DNA from: Geosiphon pyriformis uo1
Lineage: Eukaryota > Fungi > Glomeromycota
NCBI GenBank assembly: GCA_016748015.1
Contig: JAAOMT010000590.1
Location: 186,001 to 250,000 of the forward strand
Direction of reading: 5' to 3'
Length of the DNA stretch: 64,000 bases
Below the pieces are notes generated by a model. That model searched no databases. It was not told the origin of the DNA and worked only from the letters and a program-made list of their open reading frames with translations. Below, piece by piece: positions 6,241-64,000 of this stretch. Both the position numbers and the translations under genes were made by a program. Every line of letters begins with the position of its first letter. The stretch's first letter is position 1.

Positions 6241-6291
6241 ACAAACATGTTAAATTGATCTATAAAAATAGTATATAAAAACACAGTAAAC

Positions 6292-6944
6292 ATGACAACA
6301 GCAACAAGAAAAAATAAAAATTTCAGACCATATTTACTCAATGGCTTAACAACTATTCTAAGCCATAAATCAACAATAATTAGACATAGAAATTGTCATT
6401 AACCACCAAAAAATTTGCTATTGAAACACAAAAAGAAAAAAAAATCTCATATTAGTAACCACAGAACCAAATAAAGTATTGGTTAAATAAAATCATAGAA
6501 AAAGTAAAGAACACTTTTAGAAAAATACCAAAAATAAGTTCAACAAAAGAACTAACCAAAAAAAACTAGGAGCTATATATAAAACAACTTTCAATAGTAT
6601 ACTGTTATTATCAGCTAAAACAAAAGCTAAATATTCAGAAATTGTACATCAATAAATCCAAAAAAATATTTAATCAAGAAATAGTACAACAGATTGAAGA
6701 GTTTATTGAAAAAAAAACAAATTCAAGAATATATATTAAAACAATTTACCAACTATATACTGTATTTCAAAACTATTTAGAAATATTACTACACTAAAAA
6801 ATAGAAACAATAATTGTTAACCAGTAGAAATAAATAAACAACTCTTAATGCAAAAAAATAAGGAACAGAATTGAATAAACAATATTAGAAAGAAAAGTAA
6901 TAGACTTAATTCAAAGTGAAGATTTTGACAGAGCTCAATATTAA
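6292..6944 (+). pseudogene. Gypsy A extra 3' ORF (ORF3), unknown function
   Basis: Reads YCYYQLKQKLNIQKLY...EEFIEKKTN...KTIYQLYTVFQNY...DFDRAQY*, homologous to ORF 16951-17391. Start position approximate. Confidence 0.75.
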
Positions 6945-14594: not shown

Positions 14595-16064
14595 TTATTA
14601 ATATAAAATTAATATAAAAAACAATATTATATTTTTTTATATAAATTTTAAATTTTAAATTTTTTTATTATTATTTTTAAAAAATTAAATCTAATAAAAA
14701 ATTCTTAAATATTAATATTACTATAAATATTAAAATTTAAATTACATAATTTTTAATTATAAAACTGTTTTTTTTATTTATTAATATTTAATGAATAAGG
14801 TCCAAATATTACTTAGAACAATATATCAAATTAAATAATCTAAACTAGGTACAAATTATGTATTTTCTACACATGACCAGCCACTCGAACCAATCAAAAC
14901 AATACTACAAATCTATTTTAACAGACACTGCATTATTAATACTAGAAAAAAAACAGTAAAGCTAATAGAAACCCAAATACCTCAACAATCCCAAACAACT
15001 TAACAACCCCATTGGAAAGCAGAAATGATAGACCACAAACCATGAGAGACACTAATTTATCATGTGCAATTAACCCTTTTTTTTCATAAACACTCTATAT
15101 TTAGTCTTAACCAACTATATATCAATATGATAAGCTGCTTCCAAGCTCTAAACAAAATTAATAATATATTTACTGGCAACTTTAACATCATTAAAAATGG
15201 ACACAGTCTCTAAAAACCAATTTTAAAACAATACATCTTTACACAAAATTGTATAAAAAACATTATCAGAAATACACAAAGAAAACATCTGCAAAATCCA
15301 AAATAATGGCAAGCTTAAATCTGATAAAACATGCTATTAAGACAAGTATAATACAAGCAGGTTCTTATAAATCTTAGAATCTATCATATACACAAAAAAA
15401 TAATCAAAACTTTTCACTTCTCCACAATATAAACATAACACACTTGAATAATTATTATAATATAAATGCTTCTGAACAGCAACTGATAGGTAATAGTATA
15501 GAGCTTTTATAAAATATGATTGCAAACTGGTCATAGACTTATTTATAAAACCAGCTGCTATATGATAATTGAAATACCAACCAAATCAGTACAAAACCAA
15601 TTCACATCACCAACCAAGCTTTTGTTAATAACATCAAAACTAGAACCAATCTTTTAACAAGCACGATAAACAGCCCCAAAAATTTTCTGAGCAAAATAGT
15701 AAATGTTTCTTAACACTGCAATATTACCAGTCCTAATAAATTTATTCTTGACCAGAACAAAAAGCATTAAATTTAAATTAGCAGCCAAGCCAGCCTGCTT
15801 ATCAGCATGCTTATTCCCTAAAACACTTGAATAATTTTTAACTTTGTACCAAGAAACACAATGCCTTTTTTTTCTAATAAATTCCACAACACTATTCTGT
15901 TTTATCCAATAATAGTTGCAAAAATCTGGCAAAACCAAAAACAACTCAGCAATACAAGTGTCCAAAGCAGCCTAACTGTTCAAGTACACTATAACTAAAC
16001 TCTCAGAAGAAACACACTCCAAATCCAAAACAATAATCTGTAATTCTACTATTATAAAGGGCAC

Positions 16065-16937
16065 TGTTACAGGATGGTCTTCTTGTTATATTTAATTGCC
16101 AATATCCCGTTTTAATTGCAATCAGTCTTTCATGAGTTCCTCAATTCTATTTGTGTGATAATATTACTGTTATACTGAAGGCTTTCTTTTTAATGTCACG
16201 ATGTAAGTTATTTCTTGATTCCTGATTGTTGTGTGTTTATGTACTCTTTCTCAGAGACTGAACTGAAATCTATTCACTGTCTGGAGTCTTCTCTGAGACT
16301 ATCATTGCAATTGCCTGATGTGTTTCTCTAATCTAGAAACACAGAATGTTAATGGCCTTTAGCACTTTTCTTAATTCTTACAATAAAGCTTTTATCAATT
16401 AGTAACAACATGAATAATCTTGATCAAGGATTATTTTTCCAAGGGATTCAGCTGATGAATGATAGTTTCATTCAATAAATAATACAAGTAAGTTTCTTAA
16501 TACTTTGGATTGTGATAAATTAGTTTTAAATATGCTTTTTCATTTCTTTTTGATTTAAAGATTTCTTGGGATATTTAATTTGAAAGTACAATTTAAAGTG
16601 GAGTTTGTTAGATAAAATTGGATCTATTGCTTGATAAGTTATAATTTTTATTACTTGATTGTTTTTTCTCAATATTAAAGCTACTGTATATATACATGTT
16701 TGTAGTTCTACAAGAAAACACATTGTAATACTTTCTTTTTGATATTTCAACCTGGTGTTTGCTGCTATCACCAGTTAATGTTGGCTGCTATTGTGAACTG
16801 GTGCTTGCCACTATCATGAGATGGTGTTTGCTACTATGTTAATTATTATCTTTCTAAGATTATTACTGCATTATATTATGATTGAATAGTTTGTATTATT
16901 TTTATAATTCTTTTTGCTAAATTCTTAAACTGTAACA
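16065..16937 (-). repeat. 3' LTR of Gypsy B
   Basis: TGTTACA...TGTAACA termini; about 94% identical to 24895-25767 by manual comparison. Confidence 0.95.
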
Positions 16938-16952
16938 TTATCCCCTCCTTTC
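16938..16952 (-). promoter_or_regulatory. Polypurine tract of Gypsy B
   Basis: Minus strand GAAAGGAGGGGATAA abuts the 3' LTR. Confidence 0.9.
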
Positions 16953-17657
16953 AAGATTGAGCTTTGTCGAAATTGAAGTTAATTTCTTCATTAAATTCTA
17001 AGTTACTATAGTGGTTCAATACTGTGTTATTAATTTGTTGTTGTAATTCTTGAAATTGCAAGTTGGTAAGTCGTCCAATACTATTGGTTATTATTATGTT
17101 TATGGTTGGGTCCAACAATAGTTTGTAACAGTTTTCAAATGCTTTGAAAATTCTGTAAACTGTTTTTGAATGGAATGTAGTGTTGGTTTTTTTAATGAAA
17201 AATTCTAATAGTTGGATAGTTGTTTTATCAAACACTCTAGTTGAGTCTTTTGAGTATAATATTTGTATGTTTAAGTGCTTTCTTAGTTGATAATAACAGT
17301 AGTTAATTGGAAATTTCGTTTTCAAGTTGCTAAATGTGTCTGGTGCTAATTCACTTATTTCTATTTCTTCCATTATTAATGTATTGCTCAATGTTATCTC
17401 TAATTTTTCAATAACTTTGCTGATAAATTTGTTGTTATGTTTGGTAATATTATATGGTTTAAAATTATGTTCTTTTCTTGTTTTTGGATTTTCTATTGTT
17501 CTTTTTATGTATGTTATTTTGGAGCTATTAACTGTGATTTCCAGATCAGATTTTAATTGTTGTAAGCTTTCAACTAATTGTTGAGTTATATTATTGATGT
17601 TTTTTGGAATAAGTATTATTGTTTTAATTTTGACTGCTATTTTGGAATCTTTTGCAT
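16951..17657 (-). pseudogene. Gypsy B extra 3' ORF (ORF3), unknown helical protein
   Basis: Open frame 16951-17391 extends upstream to ~17640; ATG at 17657 is separated by a probable 1-nt homopolymer slip. Stop overlaps the PPT. Confidence 0.78.
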
Positions 17658-17703
17658 GTGTTTTTATGGTTATTAAATCATTTTTGCTGTGATCTAAGAT
17701 TAA

Positions 17704-19072
17704 TTATCTTTTTGAATAATGTTCAATTAAAACTATTGGTTCTAAATCTTGTGGAATTTGTTTTGGTAGAATTAAAGGTAATTGTGTTCCAATTCTGGAT
17801 GTCTTTGTTGTTATTACTGATTTACTGTAATAGAATTTCAGCTGGTTACCATGTGCTGCTTTTCTTAATATTTTATCATCTAGTTTTAGCTTGTATGCTC
17901 CATTTCCAAGTATTTTATGAATATAAAATGGTCCATCCCACTTGTAATCAAATTTTCCACTCCATTGTTTTTTCATTTTTGTACGATGCAACAATACTTT
18001 ATCTCCAATTTTGTAGCTAATTATATTATCTGGTAACTGGTTATTATGTCTCATTTTTTGTTGTTTTTGTGATTGTTCAATATTTTGTGCTGCTTTTCTT
18101 CTTTTGTTTTCTAAAGTTCCCATTAATTCATATGTTCTTCTAAGTAGTGTTTCCTAGAATGTTGCTTCTGTGATAGTGTCACTTAGATAAGTTGAGATAG
18201 TAAGTTCAACTAGTAATATGGCTTTTCTTTCATAAACTAGTTCAAATGGTGTGAATTGTGTAGTATTTTGTTTTATTGTTCTATATGCTAGTAATACTGC
18301 TGGTATAAACAAATCCTATTCTTTTTCATGTTCATTACTAATTTTCGCCAGTAATTCACATAATGTGCGATTAAATCTTTCAACTAATCCATTTGTTTAA
18401 GGATGGTATGGTGATGACAGTGGTTGCTTGATTCCAAATTTTTGGCTAAGTTCTTTTAAAATGCTGTTTACGAAATGTGTGCCTTAATCTGATAGCAATT
18501 TTTGTGAACATCCATGCTGGTAAATTAAGTCTTCATGTATGAATTGAGCTACAGAAATAGCATTAGCTGTTTTAATAGCTCTAGCTTCTGGCTATTTGGT
18601 AAGATAGTTTATGGCTACTGTAATATAATGGTTGTTTCTTGTTGTTATTAATAAGAGTTCAACTAAATCAATTCCAATTCTGTCAAATGGCTGTCCAACT
18701 TTTATTGGTCTTAATAATTCCATTGTTTTTGCTCCTCCTTTTTATTGGCATGGGTCACAATTTCTTATGTATTGGATTATGTCTGAACTTATTTTTGGCC
18801 AATAGTAATGGCTAGTTGTACATTGGATAGTTGCTGTTTTTCTAAAGTGGCCTGAATGAATATCTGAGTGCATGTTAAATAAAATAGTTTCTTTTTCATC
18901 CATAGTTATAACTCTTAATAGATTATCTAGATTTTGTCGATTCCAGTAATAAAGTATGTGATTTTGGATGAAATAGTGTTTTGCTAATTTTTGGAGCTTA
19001 ATTAGCCATTTCTTTGTTTATTTGTAGTGTTTTCAAGTATTGCCTAAGGTTTTTGTAAAGATGATTGTTTAT
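17704..19072 (-). pseudogene. Gypsy B integrase
   Basis: HSDIHSGHF...YYWP...C.PC, FDRIGIDLV, HP.TNGLVERFNRTL, KWDGPFYIHKILGNGAYKL; no chromodomain seen. Confidence 0.9.
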
Positions 19073-19101: not shown

Positions 19102-22100
19102 TTATGTGTGTCTCATTCTTGACAAACAGTCAGCATTAGCATTTTTGGTATCTTCTTTGTATTTGATAATATAATTATATAGTGCTAACATTTGTGACCA
19201 TCTGGCATATTTTTCTTTTAGCACATTCTTGTTAATTAACCAGACCAGACCTCTATGATCTGTGATAATCTCAAAGGGTTAGTACTGTAAATATGTGTCA
19301 AAGTAAACACAACTACAGACTACTGCTAAGCATTTAAGTTTATATGCTACATAGTTTTGTTCTGCTATACTGAGACTTCTGCTGACATAAGTAATTACAC
19401 GTTCTCTTCCATTATCATTTTTTTGTGACAGAATGACTCCAAGTCCAGTTCCAGAGACATTTGTAGCCAAAATAAATTTTTTGTTGAAATTCGGATAGAT
19501 CATTATTGGTGATTCAATAAGCTTTTGTCTAAGGTACTTAAAAGCTTTTTGTTGTGCTTCAGTCTATTCAAATTTTACATTTTTGGATAGTAGGTAATTA
19601 AGGGGTTTGGTGATGTTTGAAAAGTTTTCTACAAAGTGGCAGTAGTAAGATGTGAGTTCTAAAAAGCTTCTAACTTCTGAAATGTTTCGAAGTACTGGAA
19701 AATTTTTCACTTTGTCTATTTTTGATGGATCTGGTTTTATTCTATTTTTTTCAACTATGTGTCCTAAAAATGCTAGCTTATTTTTTCCAAAGAAACATTT
19801 TTTTAGATTTAGTTTAAGTTTAGTATGTCTCAATCTCTCAAAAACTTGTTGTAAATGTTGGAGATGATCCGTGAATTTTGACGAAAAAACATTTGTATCA
19901 TTCAAGTAGACAACAACGGATTGCCACAGGATTCTGAAGTAAATTATGTCCATTAGTCTTTGGAATGTCACAGAAACATTTGTTAATCCAAATGGCATTA
20001 CATTGAACTCATAATTGTCATTTTGTGTTATGAATGCTGTTTTATGCCTGTTCTTTGGGTCCATTTTCACTTGTCAGTACTCACTGGTCAAGTCCAGTGT
20101 AGAAAACCATTTTGCTTCTCTAAAAACGTTAAAGATTTTGTCAATTAACAGTATTGGGTATGAGTCTTTGGTTGTTTTGCTGTTTAGTTTGCAATAGTCG
20201 ATGCAAAATCTAATTTTTTTATTTTTTTTCCTTACTAAAACAACTGGTAAGGACCATGGGCTTATTGATGGTTGTATTATTCCTTTTTCTAACATGCTTT
20301 GGACTTTTTCTCTGATAAAATTATGCTTCATTAATGAGACATGGTAAGTGCGTTGTTTTTCAGGTCTGGTATCTCCAGTGGGGATTTGGTGTTGAACCAA
20401 GTTGGTTCTTCCAAATTTGCCATTTCATGAAAATATATCAGAATATTTTAAAATTAATGCTTTTAATTGTCATTGTTGGTCAGGATCCATTGTTCTAATG
20501 TTTAATTTGGCCAATTTTTCTGGTGTAAATTGATAGCATTCTAATGGTTGTTGCCAATTTATTGAAGTGAGTTCACAGTAGAAAGTGATTTCTGAGAAAT
20601 TTAGAATTTCTTGTGGTGTTGATGCATTTTCTAGCTCTATTCCAAAGTATCCAATAATAGTATCTTCCAGAATGTAGACAGGTTCTTCTGTGGTGTTTGC
20701 AATAAGAATTTTTATCTATTGAGCTTTATCAGCTGGAATAAAAAGGTTAGTAAGTCCTATGAGAAACTGTTGGCAAGTTTCTGGGTAGAGTTCAAATATT
20801 AGGTCTTTTTCTTTAATTGTCCTTTTTATTTTTATTTCTGATTTTCCATATGGTAGAAGCATCATAAACTATTCATTTTTAATTACTTCATCTTTTTTCT
20901 TTATTGTTTCAGCAAAATTCTCTTCAATTCCTTTTTCTGTCAATCCAAAACCAAAAGTTCCTCTCGTTGTTTGTAACAATTCCTTATGATTTTCTACTGG
21001 CACAAATTTCCCAATTTTTACCAATGGTAAAAAAATTGCTTGTACAATTTTTTCCTTAGATTCAATGGTATAAGGCTTTTTTGAATTGTTTTGTAGCAAA
21101 ACCATCAAATTTCCAGTGTATCCGAAGTCAATTACTCCTCCTTGAATGCTTATTCTTTTTTTCGCGAGGCTTGATCATGATGCTATTTGAACCATTATTC
21201 CTGGCAGAATTTTAACCACTATTTTTAGGTCGATTTTGGTGATGCTCCTGGATGGTAACGTTGTGGATTGGTCTTCTGGATAACATAGATCAAATTTGGC
21301 ATCAGTTGGATGGACTCTTTCAAGTATTATTCCTAAGTGCCCATTGTCAAAGTATTGAATGTCAATCACTTGTTCTAGGTCGGTATAGGCTACAAATTTT
21401 TCTGACTTGGGACCATTAGATGAGTTTTGTTGATTTATTAATTGATTTTGAGACTGCTGATTCTCAATTTCCATTTTTCTTTCTAAGTTTCTTTCATCTC
21501 AACATTCTTCACAGCACTGATTTTGGCACGGGATAAGACAGTTTTTGCAGAGATAAGTATTGATTTGGGTGAGGTATTGTTTTTGCTTTTGTTGAGTGGA
21601 GCATAGTTGTTAGTAGTAGTTCTGGAATTTGTCCACTAGATCAAACATGTTGTAGCTGGCAACTTTGTTGGCTACTTTGGCTGACTCTTTCTAGCATTGT
21701 ATTTTTTTGGTGGTTTCTTTTCTTACTTTGGCTTGTGTAGTGTTGTACAACTCGTCCTTGTCATGTGAATAGTGCTGTAGTCTTTTTAACACTCTGTTGA
21801 ATGCTGCTTCAAACGGCATTCCTCCTTTTACCCAGTCACAGATGAGAATCATGTATTGGCAAGTTGCATCATACATTCCTTCTCTGTCTAGTATGTCATT
21901 CTAGTCACACCCTCTTGGTAACGGTTTTCCACAAGTGAGACACAGTTCCTTGTCCCATTTTCCATGTCTTTCTGAGTAACCATATTTTTTTTGTTACAAC
22001 AGTTACAATAGTAGTGGGTGGGGTTTCTTGGGTCTTTGTCTGGTGCACTGCACACAGTCATAGATGAGAGTTTCTTCTTGCAAACTGAGCATTCTAGCTT

Positions 22101-24812
22101 TGGTCTGTGTCACTGGTGGCTCCTTCATGGACTTACCTGGTTTCATTCGGATCTTTCTTTGCTGGTCCACATTGGTACGGCTGGTAGTCCTGTTCTTTGG
22201 TCATCAGCCCAAGAGAGCTGATAGGTTTTGATGGCTGGTAGTGCTGGATTTTCCTCAAATTCAAAGATAGATCTTTGGTTGGCACTGGTTTTTTGGAAGT
22301 GGCTACAGGTGGCTGGAATTCTGGCCTGGTGGCCATTATAATTAATTAGAAGCTCTTAGGTGGTCCAGTTTAGGGTGGCATTGGCTTTTGTTAGCCAGTC
22401 ATTCCCTACTAATGCTTGATATTGTGTAGTATTCATTACTAATACTTTTGTAGATATTACTATGCCATTAATTTCAAAAGAAAATGAGTCGATTTTGTCA
22501 TGAGGCAGCTTTGTACTTCCATCGGCTGTTATGATTTGGGACATCGCAGCATAATCAACTTTAAAACCCAGTTGGTTTACTAGTTGAAGCATTATGATGC
22601 TTCCAGCGGATCCACTGTCTAAGATAAGTTTGATTGAAGTATTGTTTACAGTGGCTTCTATATACATAGCAGTGATTGGGCATTTTTTGTCCAATGCTGC
22701 TCCACTGAACATAGCCTCATTTTCTTCTAATTCAAAAGGAAAAATAGCTGTGAGACTGCTATCTTCAGTGGCAACTGCTGGTAGTATTGTCTGGCTCAAT
22801 TTGTTGAAGGAATTTTTGGTTTTGTTTATGTTTCTACTGTCATTGTTTCCGATGATTAGATTTTCCAGTATATTAAGGTAAGTTTGTTGATAATTTTGGT
22901 AGTTTGGATTAGTTTGCTGATTGGTTCCAGTGCAGTTTGGATTCCTCTGAACCAATGCATTCTGGTTCCACATGGGCTAATTTCGGGCTTTGGGATGCCA
23001 ATTCAGGTTGACTATTATGGGCTGTTGCTAGTAAGTTCTTTGATTTTAATATGTGGTAGAATATTGGCATGGTATTGGCATGTACTGGTTTCTGGGTATT
23101 TGGAGTGACATGTAGTAATTATTTTCATGTGCTTCCTGCATCATTCGTATTCGACATTGACTAATCAAATGTCCTACGCATTTGTAAAAATAGCAGGCAC
23201 ACATTTCTGTTCTGAATTTTTGGCACAGCAAGCAATTATTTCAACTGTCATTAACTTCCTGGCTGCATTTTTGGAGTGGTTAGTATGTATTTCTTCTTGG
23301 ATTTAGAATAAGGTAACTTTCTATTTTTTTAGAGAGTTTCTTCCCTAATTGTGTTACTCTTTTCTCTAATGTTTCTGTCTTATTTTCCTCCATTACCATG
23401 TTAACTATTTGACTATGGTTAGCTTCTTTTTCAGCCAATTTAAGAGCTCTGGCGAGCATAACAGCTTTTGGTAAGAAATTAAGATGGACAGGGCATACTC
23501 TTCCTAAAATGCTGCTTTTTAATCCTTTAATAAACTGATTTAAAACCTGAAGATCAGTGTAGTATTCTTGTTCAATTGCTTCAATCTGATGGCAAATTCG
23601 ATTGAATTGAGCAAGATATTGGGTGACAGTTTCACTGGTATTTTGCTTGATAGTATTGAATTTGTTCTGTAGTTGGATTATGGCATTTGGGTCACTAAAA
23701 TACTCCAGGAGTGTATTTTTAAATTTGGTGAAGCTTGTGAGTTTTGTTTCCAGGCTTTGATACCACAAGTCGGCTGTGCCTTTCAGGAAGAAAAGTAATG
23801 TTTGAATTGCTCTTTGGTCATTCCAGTTATTTGCCTGGATGGCTTTTTGTGCTTCTCTGAGTCATGTGTGCACGTTCATTTTTTCTTCCTCTCCTGAGAA
23901 ATCTGTTAGTCTTGCAATGTATGGTGTGGTCATTTCATCGCCGTTTTCTACTGGTGGGCTTATTGGTCTAAGAGAAGGTGGGATGATATTTCCTTAAGCA
24001 TTCCTGAAGGTGGCTTTTTTTATATCTAGTTCTTCCTCTTGATCACAAGTTTCTTGGTTTCTGGACTGGCTGCTTGTTCCAGTGATTGGTTTTGTGATTG
24101 TTTTTTTGCTGGTCTCTTTTTTGGATTCTGATTTAGACTTCTCTTTACAGTTTTCAAACCCCATTCCAAATTTTGGCTGAAAAAAAAAGTTTTGGAATAG
24201 TGATAAATATCCTCCTGTAATTGGTATGTCTTTCCAGTTATGTTGTTTAATTTTATCAGTATAACTAGGAGTTCTTGGCATTTGTAGAGTTGATGTTGAT
24301 AATGATACAGCTCCTAATGGAATTTGTATCTTATTTTCTGGTAAAAAATGATATGATTTATCTTCTGGTGAATAAATACGTTGTTTTTTTATTGATTAAG
24401 TGACAGTTTTCTTTGGTGTTTGAGCAGGTGTTCCTAGTTTTTGCTGGTTACTTTCCTGATTAGTTTTTGAATTTTCTTTGGTTTTGTTGGCACGTTCCTT
24501 AGTGTTTCCTGTGAATATTGAAAAATTTTTGTTGGCATATTGCTCAATTTCTCGATGAATTTTGACAATAGTTGCGGCTATTACTGCTACTTTTTTTGTA
24601 GTGTATTGTGATAATTCTCTATACAATCCAAGTTTTGTGTCATGTGATTCTTCTTTCTTTCCTATATGATAATTTATTCTGGCGTTGATATAATAAGTAA
24701 GAGCAGATTCTGCTGGACAACACTCTTCTGGTAGTCCAAGATCACTTTGATTTTGTGTGTAAATAGCACAGCAGAATTCAAGAACAGTAAGATTAGGGGT
24801 TTTTGTTGCCAC
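19102..24812 (-). pseudogene. Gypsy B gag-pol (N-terminal extension, capsid, CCHC, protease, Cys-rich domain, dUTPase, RT, RNase H)
   Basis: ORF fragments 24396-24812, 23280-23768 (capsid), 23046-23231 (CCHC), 22356-22973 (protease), 20074-20400 and 19564-20070 (RT), 19279-19503 (RNase H); ends NADCLSRMRHT*. Confidence 0.92.
20935..21335 (-). pseudogene. dUTPase domain in Gypsy B
   Basis: HPTDAKFDLCY, QIAS*SSLAK, GGVIDFGYTGNL, KIVQ, TRGTFGFG. Confidence 0.92.
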
Positions 24813-24878
24813 TTTTGTCTCTTCCTTTTTAGCAATGAATTATTGCTAATTATTATTTCCTTTTTAATTTTCTTTCTT

Positions 24879-24892
24879 CGTAGGGTTCACCA
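24879..24892 (-). promoter_or_regulatory. Primer binding site of Gypsy B, probably tRNA-Trp
   Basis: TGGTGAACCCTACG lies 2 nt after the 5' LTR and resembles the tRNA-Trp PBS TGGTGACCCCGACG. The tRNA identity is inferred. Confidence 0.7.
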
Positions 24893-24894
24893 AA

Positions 24895-25767
24895 TGTTAC
24901 AGAATGGTTTTCTTGTTATATTTAATTGCCGATATCTCATTTTAATTGCAATCAGTTTTTCATGAGTTCTTCAATTCTATTTGTGTGATAATGTCACTGT
25001 TATACTGAAGGCTTTCTTTTTAATATCGCAATGTAAGTTATTCCTTGATTCCTGATTGTTGTGTGTTTATGTATTCCTTCTCAGAAGCTGAACTGAAATC
25101 TACCCACTGTCTGGAGTTTTCTCTGAGGCTATCATTGCAATTGCTTAATGTGTTTCTCTAATCTAGCAACACAAAATGTTAATGGTCTTTAGCACTTTTC
25201 CTAATTCTTACAATAAAGCTTTTATCAATTAGTAACAACATGAATAATCTTGATCAAGGATTATTCTTCCAAGGGATTCAGCTAATGAATGATAGTTTTA
25301 TTCAATAAATAATACAAGTAAGTTTCTTAATACTTTGGGTTGTGATAAATCAGTTTTAAATATGTTTTTTCATTTCTTTTTGATTTAAAGATTTTTTGGG
25401 ATATTTAATTTGAAAGTACGATTTAAAGTGGAGTTTGTTGGATAAAATTGGATCTATTGCTTGATAAGTTATGATTTTTATTACTTGATTGTTTTTTCTC
25501 AATATTAAAGCTACTGTATATATACATGTTTGTAGTTCTATGAGAAAACACATTATAATACTTTCTTTTTGATATTTCAACCTAGTGTTTGCTGTTATCA
25601 CCAGTTGGTGTTGGCTGCTATTGTGAACTGGTGCTTGTCACTATCACGAGATAGTGTTTGCTACTATGTTAATCATTATCTTTCTAAGATTATTACTGTA
25701 CTATATTATGATTGAATAGTTTGTATTATTTTTATGATTCTTTTTGCTAAATTCTTAAACCATAACA
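24895..25767 (-). repeat. 5' LTR of Gypsy B
   Basis: Direct repeat of 16065-16937, adjacent to the PBS and followed by the TSD. Confidence 0.95.
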
Positions 25768-28700
25768 GCACCAATTTATTAACCTTAATGCCAATACCTA
25801 AATCCAAGTCAAAAAAATATGCAGCTGCTCCACATCTCATTTCATACATATCCAAGTTCCTCAAAAATTCATCTGTGTACACACTAATAACATCCAAACC
25901 AGCATTAAAAAGACTCTGTGTTAATTTAAAAAAGCCACCAGAATTACAAATATCCAAAGACTGAGAGTTAATATTACATGATCCAGTAAAAAGCAAAGAT
26001 CTGGTCAAGAAATTACATGTTAAATTGAATTAGCAAAAGACTAGGTCTTTTGAATCAAGTTTTTTTTAACTGCAAAAGCTCTTTTAATTGAAGATCAATT
26101 TCTTTTTGTTATACAATTGGTTAATAAAAGCAATTTCAAATCTCTTGAGTGAACATAAAACATTATAAAACATAGAATCTCTTAGAACAAAAACATTGGA
26201 GTGCTGTCAGAAAGACAGAATGCAGAAAGACAAATATTGTTAAAAAACATATTACAATCCAAAAAAATTCTTACTATACCAGCCAAAAAATTATTAACTG
26301 GACTGATTTTTAGATTAATGCAAAAAGTAAATGAAAAACCAACTTATGACTTGTAGATCTAAAGACCAATAATCAAACAATCGACCAAAAATCTCTTTAG
26401 CATTTGAAAAACTTAATACTAAAGCTGCTTTACTTTTAGTCTGTAACTGTTCAAATGTTTTTAAGTTATACAATAAAGAATAGTAAAGGGCCTTATTAGG
26501 AAAATCTTTTGGCAGACCAGTTTTTGACTTCAAACCTTTCCTAATCAGTATATTTCATTTAGTACACACATTCTTAGAAACAAAACTAAACTGAGTCTTA
26601 TAATTTACTATAAGTTGTAGTATAGCGAAAACTAAATAAAAAAACTGCTTGTCTGAGATAGCTTTTCTTAAAACCAAATTAACAAAAAAACTGACATCTA
26701 AATAAGTCTTGGCCAAATTAGGTTTGGATAAGCCCTCTGAAGACAAAAAAATACCAAGATACCTGTAAAACTCTTTTCTATGAGCAACAAAAATTGGTAA
26801 ATTACTTATCAACAATAAAACATCTTTTACTTTCTGGTTGATAAGAATGACAACAGTCTTTTTATTATTGATCGAAATGTTATTGATCTTAAAAAAGCTA
26901 CTAGCAATGTTTAAAATGTATTAAATAGCCATTTGGCTACTTTTAACCCAAATTGTGTTGTCAACAAAAGCACTAACTACAAGAAATGATGATAACTCAT
27001 CTATGTTCTTTAGTTTGTTAGTCTTGGCAACAAATTTAGTATCAATATAATAACCATACAAGCTTTTCTGCTGTTTGACTTTACATAACAGAGGATTATA
27101 AAAAATTCTCTAAAGCAGAGAAGAGAAAACTTCACTCTAGTTTAGACTATTATGCACTTGATATCTATCTGTTAAGCCATAGTCAGTTATGACCCAATTA
27201 ATTTTACTATTGTGAATGTTCCCAAAGAACTAGATAAACTATTTACACATTTTAATCTGAACTAAACTGTTTCTCAAATAACATTATTTCACAGAATTGT
27301 AAGCCTTCTGTATGTCTTGTAAAACCAACCAAAATTCATGGTCTTTTTCCAAAGCATTTTTAACTACAAAGCCAATGACAAAGATAGGAGATTGAGTGGT
27401 AATTCTTTTTAGCACAGAAAAATTGTTACCACAAAGAACATTAAATTCATTACAGGCCAAAAAAATTTTATCAGAAAGTAACTTAAAAAGAATTTTATAA
27501 GTAGTCTTAATTTTTTATTTATTTATTTATTTATTTAATGAGTGAAGCCCAATCACTATTTAATACAATACAACTATCTAAAGTTCTAAATTAAATGTGA
27601 TTTATGTATTTGCTACATGTAATTAGCCACTTGGCCAATCAAGGCTATATTATACAACTATATTAACCATAACTTTGCCAGCAACACCAGCAAAAAACAA
27701 ACAGCCAACATCCAGACCAAAATTGGTGATATGATCTCTCTCAATACTCAGTAAATAAGCAACACCACCTGAAATCCTAGTAGAAAGACTCCAAACAATA
27801 TTGTATAAAGACTTATCCACATGAATCAACCCTTAATGCTCCATATTAATCTAAAGCTTCAAATTAGACACCCAGATTTGCTTTCTATGGCCAGTAATCA
27901 CACCTTGAACAAACTCAATAAGATTACATGTTGTGAACTTAGTATTTTCAAAAGAGGCCTTAGCTTCCATCAACCAATCTTTAAATATAAACCTCTTGCA
28001 TAGAACTGTATAAAGTTTAATGTCAGAAGCAGATAAGATGTGTATAAGAGACAGAACCATAACAGCACCAATTTATTAACCTTAATGCCAATACCTAAAT
28101 CCAAGTCAAAAAAATATGCAGCTGCTCCACATCTCATTTCATACATATCCAAGTTCCTCAAAAATTCATCTGTGTACACACTAATAACATCCAAACCAGC
28201 ATTAAAAAGACTCTGTGTTAATTTAAAAAAGCCACCAGAATTACAAATATCCAAAGACTGAGAGTTAATATTACATGATCCAGTAAAAAGCAAAGATCTG
28301 GTCAAGAAATTACATGTTAAATTGAATTAGCAAAAGACTAGGTCTTTTGAATCAAGTTTTTTTTAACTGCAAAAGCTCTTTTAATTGAAGATCAATTTCT
28401 TTTTGTTATACAATTGGTTAATAAAAGCAATTTCAAATCTCTTGAGTGAACATAAAACATTATAAAACATAGAATCTCTTAGAACAAAAACATTGGAGTG
28501 CTGTCAGAAAGACAGAATGCAGAAAGACAAATATTGTTAAAAAACATATTACAATCCAAAAAAATTCTTACTATACCAGCCAAAAAATTATTAACTGGAC
28601 TGATTTTTAGATTAATGCAAAAAGTAAATGAAAAACCAACTTATGACTTGTAGATCTAAAGACCAATAATCAAACAATCGACCAAAAATCTCTTTAGCAT

Positions 28701-30332
28701 TTGAAAAACTTAATACTAAAGCTGCTTTACTTTTAGTCTGTAACTGTTCAAATGTTTTTAAGTTATACAATAAAGAATAGTAAAGGGCCTTATTAGGAAA
28801 ATCTTTTGGCAGACCAGTTTTTGACTTCAAACCTTTCCTAATCAGTATATTTCATTTAGTACACACATTCTTAGAAACAAAACTAAACTGAGTCTTATAA
28901 TTTACTATAAGTTGTAGTATAGCGAAAACTAAATAAAAAAACTGCTTGTCTGAGATAGCTTTTCTTAAAACCAAATTAACAAAAAAACTGACATCTAAAT
29001 AAGTCTTGGCCAAATTAGGTTTGGATAAGCCCTCTGAAGACAAAAAAATACCAAGATACCTGTAAAACTCTTTTCTATGAGCAACAAAAATTGGTAAATT
29101 ACTTATCAACAATAAAACATCTTTTACTTTCTGGTTGATAAGAATGACAACAGTCTTTTTATTATTGATCGAAATGTTATTGATCTTAAAAAAGCTACTA
29201 GCAATGTTTAAAATGTATTAAATAGCCATTTGGCTACTTTTAACCCAAATTGTGTTGTCAACAAAAGCACTAACTACAAGAAATGATGATAACTCATCTA
29301 TGTTCTTTAGTTTGTTAGTCTTGGCAACAAATTTAGTATCAATATAATAACCATACAAGCTTTTCTGCTGTTTGACTTTACATAACAGAGGATTATAAAA
29401 AATTCTCTAAAGCAGAGAAGAGAAAACTTCACTCTAGTTTAGACTATTATGCACTTGATATCTATCTGTTAAGCCATAGTCAGTTATGACCCAATTAATT
29501 TTACTATTGTGAATGTTCCCAAAGAACTAGATAAACTATTTACACATTTTAATCTGAACTAAACTGTTTCTCAAATAACATTATTTCACAGAATTGTAAG
29601 CCTTCTGTATGTCTTGTAAAACCAACCAAAATTCATGGTCTTTTTCCAAAGCATTTTTAACTACAAAGCCAATGACAAAGATAGGAGATTGAGTGGTAAT
29701 TCTTTTTAGCACAGAAAAATTGTTACCACAAAGAACATTAAATTCATTACAGGCCAAAAAAATTTTATCAGAAAGTAACTTAAAAAGAATTTTATAAGTA
29801 GTCTTAATTTTTTATTTATTTATTTATTTATTTAATGAGTGAAGCCCAATCACTATTTAATACAATACAACTATCTAAAGTTCTAAATTAAATGTGATTT
29901 ATGTATTTGCTACATGTAATTAGCCACTTGGCCAATCAAGGCTATATTATACAACTATATTAACCATAACTTTGCCAGCAACACCAGCAAAAAACAAACA
30001 GCCAACATCCAGACCAAAATTGGTGATATGATCTCTCTCAATACTCAGTAAATAAGCAACACCACCTGAAATCCTAGTAGAAAGACTCCAAACAATATTG
30101 TATAAAGACTTATCCACATGAATCAACCCTTAATGCTCCATATTAATCTAAAGCTTCAAATTAGACACCCAGATTTGCTTTCTATGGCCAGTAATCACAC
30201 CTTGAACAAACTCAATAAGATTACATGTTGTGAACTTAGTATTTTCAAAAGAGGCCTTAGCTTCCATCAACCAATCTTTAAATATAAACCTCTTGCATAG
30301 AACTGTATAAAGTTTAATGTCAGAAGCAGATA
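25758..30332. repeat. Apparently identical 2278-bp tandem duplication (25758-28035 = 28055-30332), assembly artefact
   Basis: Identical ORFs at a constant 2297 offset; the two copies are separated only by a 19-bp adapter. Confidence 0.93.
28036..28054 (+). other. Tn5 mosaic end / Nextera adapter contamination
   Basis: Exact AGATGTGTATAAGAGACAG. Confidence 0.98.
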
Positions 30333-36283: not shown

Positions 36284-36919
36284 TGTTATTACATTTCTTA
36301 TTAATTATTACATGTATTAACCACTCTATTTTTAGATAGTGATTATTAATTTGATCAATAATCTGATCATTGATCTAGTTATTGACCTGATCATTAATCA
36401 CTTTTAATAACTATATAAGCAATGAATCTCTTAGCTGTGGAAATGCATATAAGAATCAAAGAAAAAAAAGCAATAAAATAATAATTTCATTTCAATCTTT
36501 CTCTTATCACTAAATTTTCTTTCTTTATTTTCAAGTATCTGAACATCTTGGGATAAAAAATTACTTGTTGGTTATTCTCTACTTTTTTTCTGAAATATAT
36601 AATTATAGCATTCAAAGATTATTGAATAAATATGACTGAAAAATACATTTGATACCTGATATTGAATTTTAAGAGCACCAATGTGAGGCATAAAATTATA
36701 CCAGGCGTGATCATTTGTTGACAGTATAGACTATCCCTCTATCTTTAGATTCCCCAGTTATCTTTTGAAAAGTATAGCAACTGAGATATTTTATGAGACT
36801 GATCTCACATATTGAATTCTTATTTATTTAATTCGCTTTTTAAAGTTTTAATTCCTTTCATTACTCTACAATCCTGTTTTTCCTTGCTATTTGTTAGCTT
36901 GTTACTCCAATCTGTAACA
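36284..36919 (+). repeat. 5' LTR of Gypsy D
   Basis: TGTTA...TGTAACA; direct repeat of 43185-43825. Confidence 0.9.
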
Positions 36920-42100: not shown

Positions 42101-42747
42101 TACCTTCATAAACAAACATGATAATGAACTTGGACAATTACTCTGTCTTAATGAAATTTTTGGGTAAAAAACAATCACTAGAATACATTCGACAGCAAAG
42201 AGAACATTTGTGCAAACAATCAAATTTCTATTTGATCTGCCAAAACCAATTATATAAAAGAAACAGAAAAGATTCTAACCACTTCTAAAGAGTTATTAAA
42301 TTTAAAAAAAGAGAAATTGTAATATACAACATGCATACTGACTTATTAGTTGGATACTTTGGAAAAACAAAAACAATTCAGAAAACTTTAGCTTGCTATT
42401 ATTGGTCTATTTTGGAAAAAAACATTGCTGAATACATCAAAATCTGTAATATTTGCCAAAAAAAAAGCAAACCCAATTGCAAAGAAGATATCCATCTAAT
42501 CTCTGTTAATTAACTATTTGACAGAATTGGTATAGATGTTGTTTGACCTTTAACAATAACTTCTAATGGCAATAGATACATTATTACAACTACTGACCTT
42601 CTATACTTTCCATAAGTATTAGATCAAAAACTATTCAAATGCTATTCTGATCATTAAAAAACAAACCACCATAACAAATAACAGTGGAACACATACTGTT
42701 ATTAGACCAAAAAATTCATTACCAAAAAAGAAAAAATTGGTAGCAAA

Positions 42748-43215
42748 ATGAATAAATATCTGTTAGAAAATATAACAGCAACTATACTCTCATTTTCTAG
42801 CACAATTGGAAAAACAATCCAAGAAATCTTGTCCATAGACAAAAATTTGTCATATGAAAAGCAATTAAAACTCTATAGTCACCTTGAAGAAATCATAAAA
42901 GATATGAAATTTATGAAGAAAACAATTTCAAAGATATAGACAGAAATTTTGGGCATTATACAGTTAGATGTCTCAAGAGTTTTAACTATTGCTAAAAAAA
43001 CCAAAACTTTAATACAAAGATTTGGTCTCTTGGATACAAAACTCATTTTATCTCAAGTATTATATATCCTATTCACAAAAAATTTTAACAAACTAGTTAG
43101 TCTTGAGTTAGATAAAACTCTTCAAATAGATTACACTATAAATAGCTTAATTTCACCAAAGCTTAATCTCTTTGGAGAGAATGATATTATAATTAAAACC
43201 TACACTTCTTATTAA
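42748..43215 (+). pseudogene. Gypsy D extra 3' ORF (divergent, ORF3 position)
   Basis: ORFs 42748-42939 and 42949-43215 are in one frame split by a single stop, and run into the PPT/LTR. Confidence 0.6.
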
Positions 43216-43825
43216 TTATCACATGTATTAGCCATTGATGTCATATAATTAATCACTCTATTTTTAGATAGTAATCATTGACCTGATCATTGACTACTTT
43301 TGATAGCTATATAAGCAATAAATCTCTTAGCTATAGAAATACATATAAGAATTAAAGAAAGAAAAGCAATAAAATAACAACTTCATCTTAATTCTTTTCT
43401 TATCACTAAATTCTTTTTTCTTACTTTTAAGTATCCAAACATCTTGGAATAAAAAATTACTTGTTGGTTATTCTCTACTTTTTTCCTGAAATGTATAATT
43501 GTAGTATTTGAAGATTATTGAATAAAACATAACTGAAAAGTACATCTAATATCTGATATTGAATTTTAAGAGTGCTAACATAAGACATAGAATTATACCA
43601 GATGTAATTATTTGTTGACAGTATAGACTATTTTTCTACTTTCAGATTTCTTAGTTGTCTTTTGAAAAGTATAGTGACTGAGATATTTTATGAAACTGAT
43701 CTTGCATATTGAATTCTTACTTATTCAATTCACTCTTTGAAGTTGTATTCTCTTTGATTCTTTTCATCACCTTACAATTCTGTTTTCTTTTGTTATCTAT
43801 TAGCTTGTTACTCCAATCCATAACA
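43185..43825 (+). repeat. 3' LTR of Gypsy D
   Basis: Follows a purine tract (~43174-43184), ends ...TAACA and is followed by the GTAT TSD. Confidence 0.88.
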
Positions 43826-55759: not shown

Positions 55760-56803
55760 TTATTTTGATTCTGATATTACAGGGGCCGAATTTTCGGTAA
55801 CAGTTACAGAAGATTTCTTTTTGGAGAACGAGGTATTTTTAAAAGGGATTCCAAATCCGCTCATTAGCATTCTACAATCCAAATTAGTCTTAGCGGATGC
55901 ATTGAAAAGAATATCAAAACCAGTCATTACAGGGTACATATCGATATTTGGCTCGATATCTGGAAAGAATGGCATTGCTTGAGCTGGGACTCCCATCCCA
56001 ATATTACCCCTTCCATCTCCTGCTTTCTCCGGCAATCCATACCATTCCTTTAATCGTGGTAACACAATTTCGACAAATTTATCGAGAAATGTGTACATTG
56101 CAAGACCTTTGAGAACTACTTTACAACCGACGGGCATACCTAAAATTCAAAAAAGAAATTTAAATTTCAAAAATTCATCTAGTCAACCTGAACTGAAATG
56201 AAATCGGGTAACCAAGTTACCCTCTCTCAGTTTCCAAGATGCTACATTATTCTTTGAATAAACGATTGTTGGTCGTTGGGAAGTGATAGCTTGCATGGCC
56301 ATAAGTCCACTCATTAAATGTTGTTTACTGTAAACAGCGTCTTTCATCATGCAATGCACGTGAATTTCCTGCAATTCTGGGACACTTTTTACTGAACTAG
56401 GAAATAGTTTCGGTTTTCTTGGAGGCTTTGGCCGCACAACGAACCCTTTTTTGTATGGGTTCTCGGGAACCTGGGGATTTTCGCCCTTTCCGGACAACTC
56501 TTCAGGCGGTTGCAATTTCGAATTATGAGGGCTACTGTGTCTATAGGTTAGTATCATCAAGTCTTCAGCGAGGGTATTGAGATAGTGTTCCTCGAAACGG
56601 TTGAGTGAGGTACGGTTTGGAAAGAACTCGGGGTCATTTGGAAGTCTGGCTCTCGCTTTTGGTATTGGACCAGAGACTCTTGGTATTACTTGTTTAGGGC
56701 GTTTGTAGTGAAAGGAGGCTACATATTTTGGATTGTGGATTATTAATTGACACCAGGAAGAACGGCATAAATTTTTTCTTTTTTGAAGAAAAGAAAGTGA
56801 CAT
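55760..56803 (-). CDS. MRPL7: Mitochondrial large-subunit ribosomal protein uL5m (L5 family; yeast MRPL7-like), 2 exons join(56221-56803, 55760-56139), 320 aa
   Basis: L5 motifs VPELQEIHVH, ITSQRP, WKLREG|MPVGCKVVLKG..MY.FLDK...VLPR, GDGRGNI.MG, FFPDI, GFDI. The 81-nt GT..AG intron 56140-56220 restores the frame. Basic, Ser-rich N-terminus fits a transit peptide; CpG is retained. Confidence 0.93.
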
Positions 56804-57019: not shown

Positions 57020-58141
57020 AGCCATACTATTAGACAATTTATTAAAAACTATCATAGTTAATAACATAGAACAAATGACAAATACACAGCTTAAAGATCT
57101 ACAAAAAACAATACTTGACACAACAATTGAATATTATATTAGAAGAACAATTTTTGCAGATACATATAATTTCACAGAAGCTTAATTTTAAAAAAGAAAA
57201 ACATAATAATCCAAAATAACACAGAATAATGCATAATAACTTAAGATAATGCAAAATAATACACAATAATACAAAATAACTAGTCATAATATAAGATAAC
57301 TAATTATAATATAAAAAAACAAAACAATAACAAAAATAACAAACAATAGTTAATAATAACAAATAATTAAAAACAATCTTATAAAACTAAAAAATATGTA
57401 TAAAATTAAATAGTTTTAGCAAATAAAAAAAAACAGACAGAAAATAAGAACATATTTCCTTAAAAATATATTTTAGCTTTAAAAAAAACTTGATAAATCT
57501 TTTTTATCTTATTTTCTCTATATTTTTATATTTATAATTAAATAAAAATATTGTTTAATTTACTCATATATAATCTTAGAATATGTAATATCAAAATCAA
57601 ATTAATTGTTTTTCTTATTCTTGTTCCAGGCCAGATACTATTAGCATAAATAACTTGAAAATCCTAATAACTTAAACCAATTATTCTTGATTATGACAAT
57701 TAATAATACTAATTTTTTTTTTCTTATTTTTTTTCTTTTTTTTGAACTTTTTTTTTCTTTTAATAGAGCAATAATATTAAAAAAATCAACTGTTTAAGAA
57801 TAAATTTTATGATAACTTGGTAAAAAAAGAAAGTTTTTTTTAAGTTTAAATATTAATTTTATCTTGTTAGCTTATCAAAAAAGCAATATTAAACTTTAAC
57901 AACTGTACTTAATTAGTTTAAAGAAAATAGTTCATACATATTTAAATGTAAACAGTTAAATCATATCTTTGTATTTTATAATTAAAGAACTCCACAAGTA
58001 AATTCATATATATTAAAAATTTTTAAAAACTAATTACACTAATCTGTTACTTATAGCAAACAAAAAAAACCTTTAAGCTTTTTTACTTAAATATAAAACA
58101 CCAAACATTACTATTATATCTTACTAAGTTTATCTATAATA
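57020..58141 (+). mobile_element. Gypsy G remnant: ORF3 C-terminus, PPT and decayed LTR (~57204-58141)
   Basis: ILLDNLLKTIIVNNIEQMTNTQLKDLQKTI...YNFTEA* aligns with the ORF3 end LLLDPTINIIITNSIGRLTNLQFQELQQQI...FNFDKAQS*. The LTR matches 8251-8490 plus 10790-11326. Confidence 0.75.
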
Positions 58142-61140: not shown

Positions 61141-64000
61141 TATTACAGGTAATTATTTGAGATGTAAAAACAAATAATAAACCCATAACTGGTGTTCAAT
61201 AGCTAATATGGTTGGTAATATCTGAAAATTTTCATAATCTAAAGGTTTTTGTTTGAGTTTTTTGTATAATAGACAGAGATTCAAGTTGGTTGTTTTAGTT
61301 ACCTTTCAGAATATTCAATTCTGTTAATTTCTTTCTCAGCTTAATGGCCAGTAATTTTTTGGTAAATAATCCTCAATTTATAATTGTCTACCCTCTTTCT
61401 AAAATTTTTTATCAGTGTCTTTAACATCAATAACTCTATGCATTAATTTTTAATTAATTAGTAAATAACAAAGAAATAAAATAAAAATAAAATAAAAAAA
61501 ATAACAAAAAAAGTAAAAAAATTAGTATTCTATTAATAGCCATAATTAAGAGCTTTTGTTTTAGTATGGTTAAGTATTAGATATTATCAACATAAAGTGT
61601 TAATAATAGAAGATTAGTCGAGATTCTCAAACAGTCAGTAAAAACATAAATTAAATAAAATAAAGAGTATTTTTATTGATATTTAATGATTTCACTTTGG
61701 TTGATAATAACTATTCTTAAAGTAATTATTTAATAAATAAGAAAAAGATTTTTTCAAATCAATTTAATATTTTTCTTGCTTTTACTACTACTGTTATATA
61801 TACATAATTTGGATTATATAATGTTGTACATATTTTTAAGTAATATTTTATAATTTTTTAAACAATGCTTATATTGTTAAACAATATGTCATGATTTCTG
61901 ATAATACTTCATATTGTTAAGTAATATGTCATAATTTTTTAACAATAGTCTATATTACTAAACAATGTGTTTATGTGCTAAATACTATTCTCTTATTGGT
62001 CTATTTTCTATTTGTTTTTTTTACTACTTTTCTTGTGTTTTTTTTCTATAAGTAATATTATCTCCCTCTTTAATATTGAGCTCCATCAAAATCTTCATTT
62101 TGAATTAATTCTATTATTTTTTTTTCTAAGACTGTTTGTTCAACTCTGGTTTTTATGTCTTTCACTTGTAAGTTGTTTATTTTTCTCTATTAGTTAATGA
62201 TTATTATCTCTATTTCTGAGTATAGTAGTATTTTTGAATAATTTTGAAATATAGTGTATAGTTAATAAATTGTCCTAATATGTAGTATTAAATTTGTCTT
62301 TTTTCCAATAAAGTTTTCAATTTGTTGTATTATTTTTTGATTGAATATTTTCTTAGATTTGTCAATATATAATTTTTGAATATTCAGCTTTTGTCTTAAT
62401 TAATAATAACAATATAATATTGGAAATTGTTTTGTTTATTGTTTCTAATTTTTTTTGTTAGTTTTACTATTGAAACCATGATGGGTATTTTTCTAAATGT
62501 ATTTTTTACTTTTTTTATTATCTTATCTAACTAGTTTCTCATTTGGTTCTGTGGTTATTAGTATAGTATGGTTCTTTTTTTCTGTTTTTTTGAGTATTCT
62601 GGTAGTAAATAGTCTGATAATTGATAACAATTTCCATTTTTAATTATTGTTGATTCAAGATTTAAAGTAATTGTTGAGCCATTGTGTAGATGTAGTCTGG
62701 TATTTTTATCTTTTATCATTGCTTTTATTGCATATACTGTGTTTTTATATATTATTCTGGTTAATTAATTTAATGTGTTTGTATTGATGATTATGATTGG
62801 TTCTAGATTTTGTAGAATTTCATTTGGTTGGACTAGTATTTGTTGTATTTCCAGTTGTGAAATATTATTGGTAAATGATGATGCTGTATTGTAATATGGT
62901 TTTAATTAATCTTTATATACTGCTTTAACTAAGATTTTATTATTCCATATTAGTTTATAAGCTCTATTTTCTAAAAAATTTTTAATGTAAATGGTTCATC
63001 TTATTTGAGGTCAAATTTTCTACTCTATTGTTTTTCTACTTTAGTATGATGTAAAAATACTTTGTTTTCAATTTTAAATGTGACTGGTTTATCTAGTAAT
63101 TAATTATTATGTCTTTTTTTTTGTTTTTTTGTGATCTTTGAATGTTATTAACTGTTCTTTATCTTTTGTTTTTCAAGGTTTTTATTAATTTATATGTTTT
63201 TTTTAGCAATATTTTTTGAAATTTAAATTCTGTTATTGGTTTTGTTAGATATGTGTTAATATCTATTTCTACTAATAATATTGCTGTTTTACTATAAACA
63301 AGTTTAAATAGTGTTGCTTGTATGATATCTTGTTTTATTGTTCAATAAGCAAATAGTACTGATAGTACAAACAAATCTCATTTATTCTGGTTTTTTTGGC
63401 TGATTTTTGCTATCACTTCACACAATGTTTTGTTAAATTTTTCAACTAAGCCATTTGTTTGTGGATAATATAGTGATAATAATGGTTTTTTGATTCCAAA
63501 TCTTTTACTTAATTCTGTTAATATTCTGTTTACAAAATAAGTTTTTTAATCTAATAATAATTTTTTTGGACATCCATGTTAACAAATCAAATCTTGGTGC
63601 ACAAATTTGGCTATGAATTCTGTATTTGTTCTTTGAATTGCTTTCATTTCTGGCCATTTAATGAGATAGTCCATGATTACTGCTATATATTTGTTGTCTC
63701 TGCTGGTGATTGTTAATGGTCCAACTAAGTCAATTCTAATTCAATCAAATAATTGTTCTATTCTAATTAGTCTTAGTGGTTTACTGGGTTTTGTTTCTCT
63801 TCTTTGTTAACAAGTATCACAATTTTAAACGTATTGAATAATATCCAAATACATTAATGGCCAATAATATCTCTTTCTGATTCTCTTTATGGTTGTTTTT
63901 TTATGGAAATGTCCTGCTATTAGATGTGAATACATGTTAAATAATATTGTTTCTTTTTCTAATTCTGTAATTACTTTAAATAGTTGCTCTGGATCTTTTC
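61141..64000 (-). mobile_element. Gypsy E (family of A): integrase, ORF3 (~62072-62740), PPT (62058-62071), 3' LTR (61141-62057); continues beyond window
   Basis: Reverse complement is colinear with ~5040-7885. Confidence 0.9.

What the first reader, a model, noticed from the sequence alone, without database searches (positions are those of the whole stretch)
16951..17657. Conserved unknown ORF3 in the env position of several divergent Gypsy families
Seen: between integrase and the PPT, elements A (6292-6944), B, E (~62072-62740) and remnant G (57020-57185) encode homologous proteins (YCYYQL+..LNIQ.LY...FI.KKTN....KT.Y....F.N...LL...I..II.N.I...TN.Q..(E/D)L...F..AQ), with the stop running into the PPT. 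D has a more divergent ORF in the same place. Protein similarity persists where DNA and LTRs have diverged, which implies selection. No signal peptide or transmembrane segment is evident, so it is not an env. Inference: a soluble helical accessory protein, perhaps a DNA-binding regulator or anti-silencing factor, defining a poorly described fungal Gypsy lineage.
Basis: partly seen in the sequence, partly recalled or inferred. Interest (0 to 1): 0.8.

Follow-up and report, generated by a model that had tools for sequence, protein, structure and literature searches.

The report
Unknown third gene in fungal retrotransposons
Five families of Gypsy-type jumping genes in a symbiotic fungus carry, just behind their integrase, a conserved third gene for a protein that matches no catalogued family, is predicted to be soluble and helical rather than a viral envelope, and likely binds DNA or RNA to help the element get expressed.

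Summary
Real. Element B carries a separate ~222-codon gene (17619-16951, minus strand) between the pol stop and the polypurine tract. A, E and remnant G carry homologues; D's ORF is not detectably related. The true start codon (17619) has decayed to ATA, so this copy is dead. All named homologues are Geosiphon pyriformis gene models, in five families 22-40% identical, each found behind integrase. The pol stop sits at the same place in A, B and E while the spacer changes frame, so this is not a pol extension. Between families pN/pS is 0.45-0.64 against 0.84-0.87 in shuffles, much like integrase. There is no hydrophobic segment, so it is not env. The predicted core is all-helical and basic, and no Pfam family matches. 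Best guess (0.4): a trans-acting nucleic-acid-binding accessory regulator. Anti-silencing is untested, and ParB/DUF1016-like helix-turn-helix likeness stayed weak. One metagenome contig shows the same layout in another element, with homology unproven. Non-env ORF3s are a known class, and this scan noted similar unknown fungal Gypsy ORF3s in other genomes; this protein family appears undescribed.

The parts
16951..17619 (-). ORF3 of element B (family F1): 222 codons plus TGA; start codon decayed to ATA (Met in other copies); no internal stop
17620..17703 (-). 84-nt spacer between pol stop and ORF3 start; holds the 11-mer ATAAAAACACA (17667-17657) shared with the 55-nt spacers of A and E, a candidate expression signal
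   Evidence: 175 of 20000 shuffles reach that length
17704..18900 (-). Integrase (H2C2, rve core, SH3; no chromodomain hit) ending in TAA at 17706-17704; 6 stops in 398 codons
16938..16952 (-). Polypurine tract, overlapping the ORF3 stop
   Evidence: sequence
16065..16937 (-). 3' LTR of B (TG..CA), 93.9% identical to the 5' LTR; 52 of 53 differences are transitions
24895..25767 (-). 5' LTR of B; 4-bp target duplication GCAC at 16061-16064 and 25768-25771
22356..24839 (-). gag (with long N-terminal extension) and protease of B, broken by stops
20941..21327 (-). dUTPase domain between protease and reverse transcriptase
   Evidence: PF00692, E 7e-18
19564..20073 (-). Open part of reverse transcriptase
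   Evidence: RVT_1, E 4e-18
6314..6944 (+). ORF3 of element A (family F2), broken; pol stop at 6256-6258
62070..62709 (-). ORF3 of element E (family F2), broken; pol stop at 62767-62765
57021..57191 (+). Remnant G: last ~55 codons of an ORF3 closest to family F3, then a decayed PPT
   Evidence: (51% to P0017, E 2e-13)
42745..43200 (+). Element D: unrelated ~150-codon frame (one stop) after a truncated integrase, running into the PPT; not a detectable member of this family

Best explanation
This is a separate, selected third gene of a group of Geosiphon Ty3/Gypsy retrotransposons, and its product is likely a soluble accessory protein that would be made from its own message and would act in trans by binding nucleic acid to raise or protect the element's expression. 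Shown: separate gene in the slot after pol in five families; conserved start; purifying selection between families; no hydrophobic segment; window copies dead by transition-dominated decay. Predicted: a short N-terminal helix plus beta-hairpin and an all-helical core of about 120 residues. Inferred: a subgenomic (spliced or internally promoted) mRNA, nuclear action, and binding to the element's own DNA or chromatin to favour transcription in a host that probably methylates its transposons.
For: Separate gene: the pol stop follows the same aligned residue in A (TGA), B (TAA) and E (TAA), while the spacer is 84 nt in B (same frame) and 55 nt in A and E (+1). The N-terminal block (Met, helix, then ITIN and a Tyr) is seen in full-length models of F1, F2, F4 and F5, and in a looser form in P0017 of F3. 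Five families among 175 stored proteins (86, 49, 20, 11, 9), 22-40% identical; the most distant, F5, is confirmed by hhalign at 98.7%. Each family occurs behind integrase: window copies for F1 and F2, gene models with integrase pieces in front for F3 (2), F4 (4) and F5 (3). Selection: pN/pS B-A 0.64 vs shuffle 0.87 (6 of 1000 as low), B-E 0.45 vs 0.84 (0 of 1000); integrase controls 0.49 vs 0.75 and 0.42 vs 0.70; the true frame is the lowest of six for both pairs. Not an obvious enzyme: columns shared by 4-5 families are mostly hydrophobic, aromatic, Gly and Asn; no shared Cys, His or Asp. pI 8.5-9.3 in 5 of 6 proteins. Core model pLDDT 73.9, pTM 0.66, all helix. One contig in run X3 joins the last ~50 nt before the PPT to sequence matching the integrase zinc-finger region (28 of 30 letters), i.e. 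a derivative without ORF3, consistent with ORF3 not being needed in cis. Context: LTR elements cover 41.2% of this genome (PMC11952901, passages); CG methylation and small RNAs at transposons are reported in the relative Rhizophagus irregularis (bioRxiv 10.1101/2021.03.30.436303, passages).
Against: Nothing here tests binding or function. No Pfam or PHROG family reaches significance. Profile comparison with ParB HTH gives 0.1-0.2% and with DUF1016_N 0.2-6%, so the helix-turn-helix idea is only a faint lead. One of six proteins (P0017, F3) is neutral (pI 6.9), and AT-rich decay inflates Lys and Asn. Few basic residues are shared across families. The codon alignments were protein-guided, which slightly favours low pN, and rest on three decayed copies. 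Within family A-E the signal is not significant (55 of 1000), though integrase is not either (532 of 1000). Element D of the same window has no such gene, so it is not universal.
Confidence: 0.4

Rival explanations
1. Rev/CERV-like RNA factor: the protein binds the element's unspliced genomic RNA and promotes its export, stability or packaging.
For: Small, basic, helical, separate gene. Precedent: CERV of C. elegans Cer1, made from a spliced mRNA and needed for gRNA export (PMC10309623, abstract). Several gene models join ORF3 to one recurring acceptor in the LTR, which hints at splice sites in these elements.
Against: No sequence likeness to CERV was tested or found; no Arg-rich RNA-binding stretch is shared by the families. 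The model joins use different donors and may be gene-prediction artefacts.
Confidence: 0.2
2. Integration cofactor: the protein partners integrase or host chromatin and steers insertion, doing the job that a chromodomain does in chromoviruses.
For: It always sits directly behind an integrase that has no chromodomain hit. B's 4-bp target duplication GCAC fits an earlier scan note that insertions in this genome centre on present or decayed CpG (unchecked beyond this one site).
Against: Target preference can come from integrase alone; ORF3 is a separate gene, so it would need its own route into the particle. One target site is not a test.
Confidence: 0.15
3. Structural or spreading factor: a particle-associated or cell-to-cell/nucleus-to-nucleus movement protein that replaces env in a coenocytic fungus.
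For: It occupies the env slot; long C-terminal helix in the model.
Against: No hydrophobic segment and 1-3 Cys; no match to any envelope family.
Confidence: 0.12
4. C-terminal extension of Pol reached by read-through or frameshift, or cut off in this copy by a CAA-to-TAA mutation.
For: In B the ORF is in frame with pol behind a single TAA, and such stops are common in this copy (6 in 398 integrase codons).
Against: The stop lies at the same aligned place in A, B and E; the frame differs between families; the gene has its own conserved Met. None of 3 longer hits is a clean Pol-ORF3 fusion.
Confidence: 0.05
5. Neutral relic: captured DNA carried along without function.
For: All window copies are dead; within F5, 441 of 597 amino-acid differences fit a single C>T or G>A change; within-family dN/dS signal is absent.
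Against: Five families keep a 190-235 aa frame at 22-40% identity with low pN/pS between families; 27 of 49 F5 models are the same 221-aa frame (biased by gene calling).
Confidence: 0.03

Closest known systems
Non-env ORF3s of Ty3/Gypsy-like LTR retrotransposons in bdelloid rotifers (PMC5408684, passages) and plants (PMC5718144, passage)
   Same: Separate ORF downstream of pol, often ~210-230 aa; family-specific; the rotifer elements also carry dUTPase between PR and RT, as B does.
   Different: Rotifer ORF3s are env, TM proteins, GDSL esterases, DEDDy exonucleases or coiled coils; this protein has no TM segment and no enzyme match, and is in a fungus.
'Additional ORF with unknown function' in fungal Gypsy elements (Novikova et al. 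2010, PMC2864245, passages)
   Same: Fungal Gypsy elements with an extra ORF of unknown function; dUTPase also reported between PR and RT.
   Different: That survey centres on chromoviruses; B's integrase has no chromodomain hit. I did not see its sequences (supplements are old .doc files, not read), so identity with this family is untested.
CERV of C. elegans Cer1 (PMC10309623, abstract) and VANC anti-silencing proteins of plant MuDR transposons (PMC13547354, passages)
   Same: Element-encoded, lineage-specific soluble accessory proteins acting in trans; functional models for what ORF3 may do.
   Different: No sequence match found to either; VANC belongs to DNA transposons and derives from MAIN-like proteins; function here is untested.
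DUF1016_N (PF17761) / ParB-type helix-turn-helix domains
   Different: Probabilities 0.2-6% (DUF1016_N) and 0.1-0.2% (ParB); 1 of 30 shuffles matched the best score; not a supported relationship.

Membership tests
Ty3/Gypsy LTR retrotransposon | Two LTRs with TG..CA ends, target duplication, PPT | tested here: met
   LTRs 93.9% identical, TSD GCAC, PPT
Ty3/Gypsy LTR retrotransposon | Domain order gag-PR-RT-RH-IN | tested here: met
   Pfam gag, protease, RVT_1, integrase in this order in B; RNase H of B seen in translation only
Chromovirus | Chromodomain at integrase C-terminus | tested here: not met
   No chromodomain hit at E<=0.01 in 17707-18900 or in ORF3
Non-env ORF3 accessory gene | Separate ORF between pol stop and 3' LTR | tested here: met
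Non-env ORF3 accessory gene | Purifying selection between families | tested here: met
   (three decayed copies only)
Non-env ORF3 accessory gene | Expression from a spliced or subgenomic mRNA | not testable with these tools
env / env-like | Signal peptide, fusion peptide and TM anchor | tested here: not met
   Maximum KD19 0.27-0.96 in 6 of 6 proteins; no dedicated signal-peptide predictor was run
env / env-like | Homology to a viral fusion glycoprotein | tested here: inconclusive
   No significant Pfam match; fold searches
Enzymatic ORF3 (GDSL, DEDDy, 2OG-Fe dioxygenase) | Pfam domain and conserved catalytic residues | tested here: not met
   No Pfam hit; no shared Cys/His/Asp columns; all-helical core model
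ParB/DUF1016_N-type HTH | Profile or fold match to the HTH domain | tested here: inconclusive
Anti-silencing factor (VANC-like function) | Sequence-specific binding and loss of methylation at target elements | not testable with these tools
   Needs experiment

The most novel reading that the evidence does not exclude
ORF3 is a retrotransposon-encoded silencing suppressor or transactivator with an uncatalogued fold, inherited by a whole Gypsy lineage of early-diverging fungi (including the element on L087), and it helped LTR elements fill 41% of the Geosiphon genome. It would be a fungal retrotransposon counterpart of plant VANC proteins.
Probability: 0.15. Interest if true: 0.85.

Novelty: new variant of a known kind. 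Interest (0 to 1): 0.45.

Why it matters
Fungal Gypsy elements are usually two-gene (gag, pol). Here one protein family has been kept behind integrase through the divergence of at least five families in a genome that is 41% LTR DNA, so it probably helps the elements spread. If it counters host silencing or exports RNA, it gives a concrete, testable handle on why LTR elements expanded in Archaeosporales. Practically, at least 175 'hypothetical protein' models of G. pyriformis contain pieces of this transposon gene, many spliced to unrelated repeats, and should not be counted as host genes.

Full report
Setting. The window is 28% G+C and packed with nested, decayed repeats. No whole genome is held. 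Protein hits place it in or next to Geosiphon pyriformis: 10 of 10 hits, 3 of 3, all 36 hits of the unindexed phmmer search (names) and the 120 listed of 336 profile hits are gene models of that species. A paper reports 41.2% LTR DNA in that genome (PMC11952901, passages).

Element B. It runs on the minus strand from LTR 25767-24895 to LTR 16937-16065 (93.9% identical), with a GCAC target duplication. It encodes gag, protease, a dUTPase (E 7e-18), RT and integrase with H2C2, core and SH3 parts and no chromodomain hit. It is dead: 9 stops in 828 gag-protease codons and 6 in 398 integrase codons; 52 of 53 LTR differences are transitions.

The observation. A stop-free frame of 250 codons (17703-16951) follows the pol stop; 0 of 5000 base shuffles gave that. 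Its stop begins the polypurine tract. tblastn and a family HMM find homologues in A, E and remnant G and nowhere else in the window. The real start is 17619: close gene models begin with Met at that codon, which has decayed to ATA in B; the aligned codons in A (6314) and E (62709) are ATA too. D has its own ~150-codon frame in the same slot, behind a truncated integrase, but it does not match the family.

Separate gene, not a Pol tail. In B the frame continues pol behind one TAA, which in so decayed a copy could be a mutated sense codon. But pol ends at the same aligned residue in A, B and E, and the spacer is 84 nt in B and 55 nt in A and E, so the relative frame differs. The N-terminal block (Met, helix, ITIN, Tyr) recurs in full-length models of the other families. 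The spacers share one 11-mer (175 of 20000 shuffles), a modest candidate for a promoter or splice signal.

Breadth. The 175 stored proteins sort by best BLAST into five families (86, 49, 20, 11, 9), 22-40% identical, whereas the integrase tails of such models are 60-65% identical to B. The most distant family is a true homologue (hhalign 98.7%). Families F3, F4 and F5 include models with integrase pieces directly in front, so all five sit in the same slot. Many models are spliced to LTR or unrelated repeat sequence and are probably gene-prediction artefacts. Outside Geosiphon, one metagenome contig (L087, 38% G+C, integrase tail 47% identical) shows the same layout: SH3 tail, a 210-codon ORF (one internal stop) overlapping the pol stop, PPT, LTR. 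Its best alignments fall on the C-terminal helices, but scores are not significant, so it is a candidate only.

Selection. With aligned base pairs kept and columns shuffled, pN/pS is 0.64 against 0.87 for B-A (6 of 1000 shuffles as low) and 0.45 against 0.84 for B-E (0 of 1000); integrase controls give 0.49 against 0.75 and 0.42 against 0.70. Within the A/E family neither ORF3 (55 of 1000) nor integrase (532 of 1000) is significant, as expected for copies that diverged by decay; in F5, 441 of 597 differences fit a single C>T or G>A change. Raw Nei-Gojobori values (0.19-0.43) overstate the effect because transitions dominate. Caveats: three copies, protein-guided alignment.

The protein. About 190-235 aa, no hydrophobic segment, 1-3 Cys, pI 8.5-9.3 in 5 of 6. 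No significant Pfam or PHROG family. AlphaFold2 gives an uncertain N-terminal helix and hairpin and an all-helical core at pLDDT 73.9, pTM 0.66. Shared columns are hydrophobic, aromatic, Gly and Asn, not a catalytic set. I tested a by-eye likeness to ParB-type and DUF1016_N helix-turn-helix domains with profiles built: 0.1-0.2% for ParB, 0.2-6% for DUF1016_N, a faint lead at most. Fold, complex, Atlas and RNA attempts are listed under Tried and rejected.

Mechanism. Shown: a separate, selected, non-envelope gene behind integrase. Inferred: it needs its own message, as ORF3s typically have (PMC5408684, passages), and it acts in trans; one contig of run X3 skips integrase core and ORF3 but keeps the last ~50 nt before the PPT. 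I commit to a nucleic-acid-binding regulator of the element's expression (0.4), ahead of an RNA export factor like CERV (0.2; PMC10309623, abstract), an integration cofactor (0.15), a structural or spreading factor (0.12), a Pol extension (0.05) and a relic (0.03). That the host silences transposons by CG methylation and small RNA is taken from a relative (bioRxiv 10.1101/2021.03.30.436303, passages), not shown for Geosiphon here.

Known and new. A downstream ORF3 that is not env is a known class (PMC5718144 and PMC5408684, passages), and fungal Gypsy elements with an added ORF of unknown function have been drawn (PMC2864245, passages; its supplements were not read and may list such ORFs). My searches found no paper describing this family or any Glomeromycotina ORF3; the Geosiphon genome paper did not appear in them and was not read, and Repbase-type libraries were not available. 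Earlier scan notes describe comparable unknown fungal Gypsy ORF3s in other genomes; I could not test whether they are this family. Verdict: new variant of a known kind; real, undescribed protein family, function open; interest 0.45.

Noticed in passing
window 20941-21327 (-): Element B carries a dUTPase between protease and RT (PF00692, E 7e-18), an arrangement reported for basidiomycete and rotifer elements.
   Followed up: partly
L087:194-826 (+): Metagenome contig with the same pol-ORF3-PPT-LTR layout; its 210-codon ORF starts 16 nt inside the end of pol, which would allow coupled translation. Homology to the Geosiphon family is unproven; hhalign to DUF1016_N 14.7% in a different register.
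   Followed up: partly
window 16988 joined to ~18768 (run X3, record 17): A deletion derivative with a shortened LTR that lacks integrase core and ORF3 but keeps the last ~50 nt before the PPT; contig depth 131 against 3.3 for an ORF3 contig in the same run (depth is not copy number). Possibly an amplified non-autonomous family.
   Followed up: partly
window 23864-25100 (-): The gag frame of B appears to start inside the 5' LTR and has a long N-terminal extension with a conserved helical block also present in model P0012; unrelated to ORF3 by hhalign.
   Followed up: partly
window 42745-43200 (+): Element D (LTRs 36290-36919 and 43201-43825, 80% alike) has a truncated integrase followed by a different ~150-codon ORF with no Pfam match: a possible second, unrelated ORF3 type.
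   Followed up: partly
window ~16290-16330 (-), in the 3' LTR: At least seven gene models splice ORF3, from different donors, to one acceptor in the LTR; real splice site or prediction artefact is unresolved. About half of LTR depth in X1 shows a 2-nt insertion at 16229 that shifts that frame.
   Followed up: no
   Followed up: partly
window 25758-28036 and 28055-30333: Two 2279-bp copies 100% identical in tandem among otherwise decayed repeats: a very recent duplication or an assembly artefact.
   Followed up: no
window 55760-56884 (-): The only clear host gene seen: ribosomal protein L5 family, probably mitochondrial; remnant G begins about 140 nt from it.
   Followed up: no
window 29815-36170 and 46764-52798: Two decayed LINE-like elements (RNase H-like C-terminus, zinc-knuckle ORF1; weak Pfam rows), about 75% alike, in opposite orientation.
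   Followed up: no
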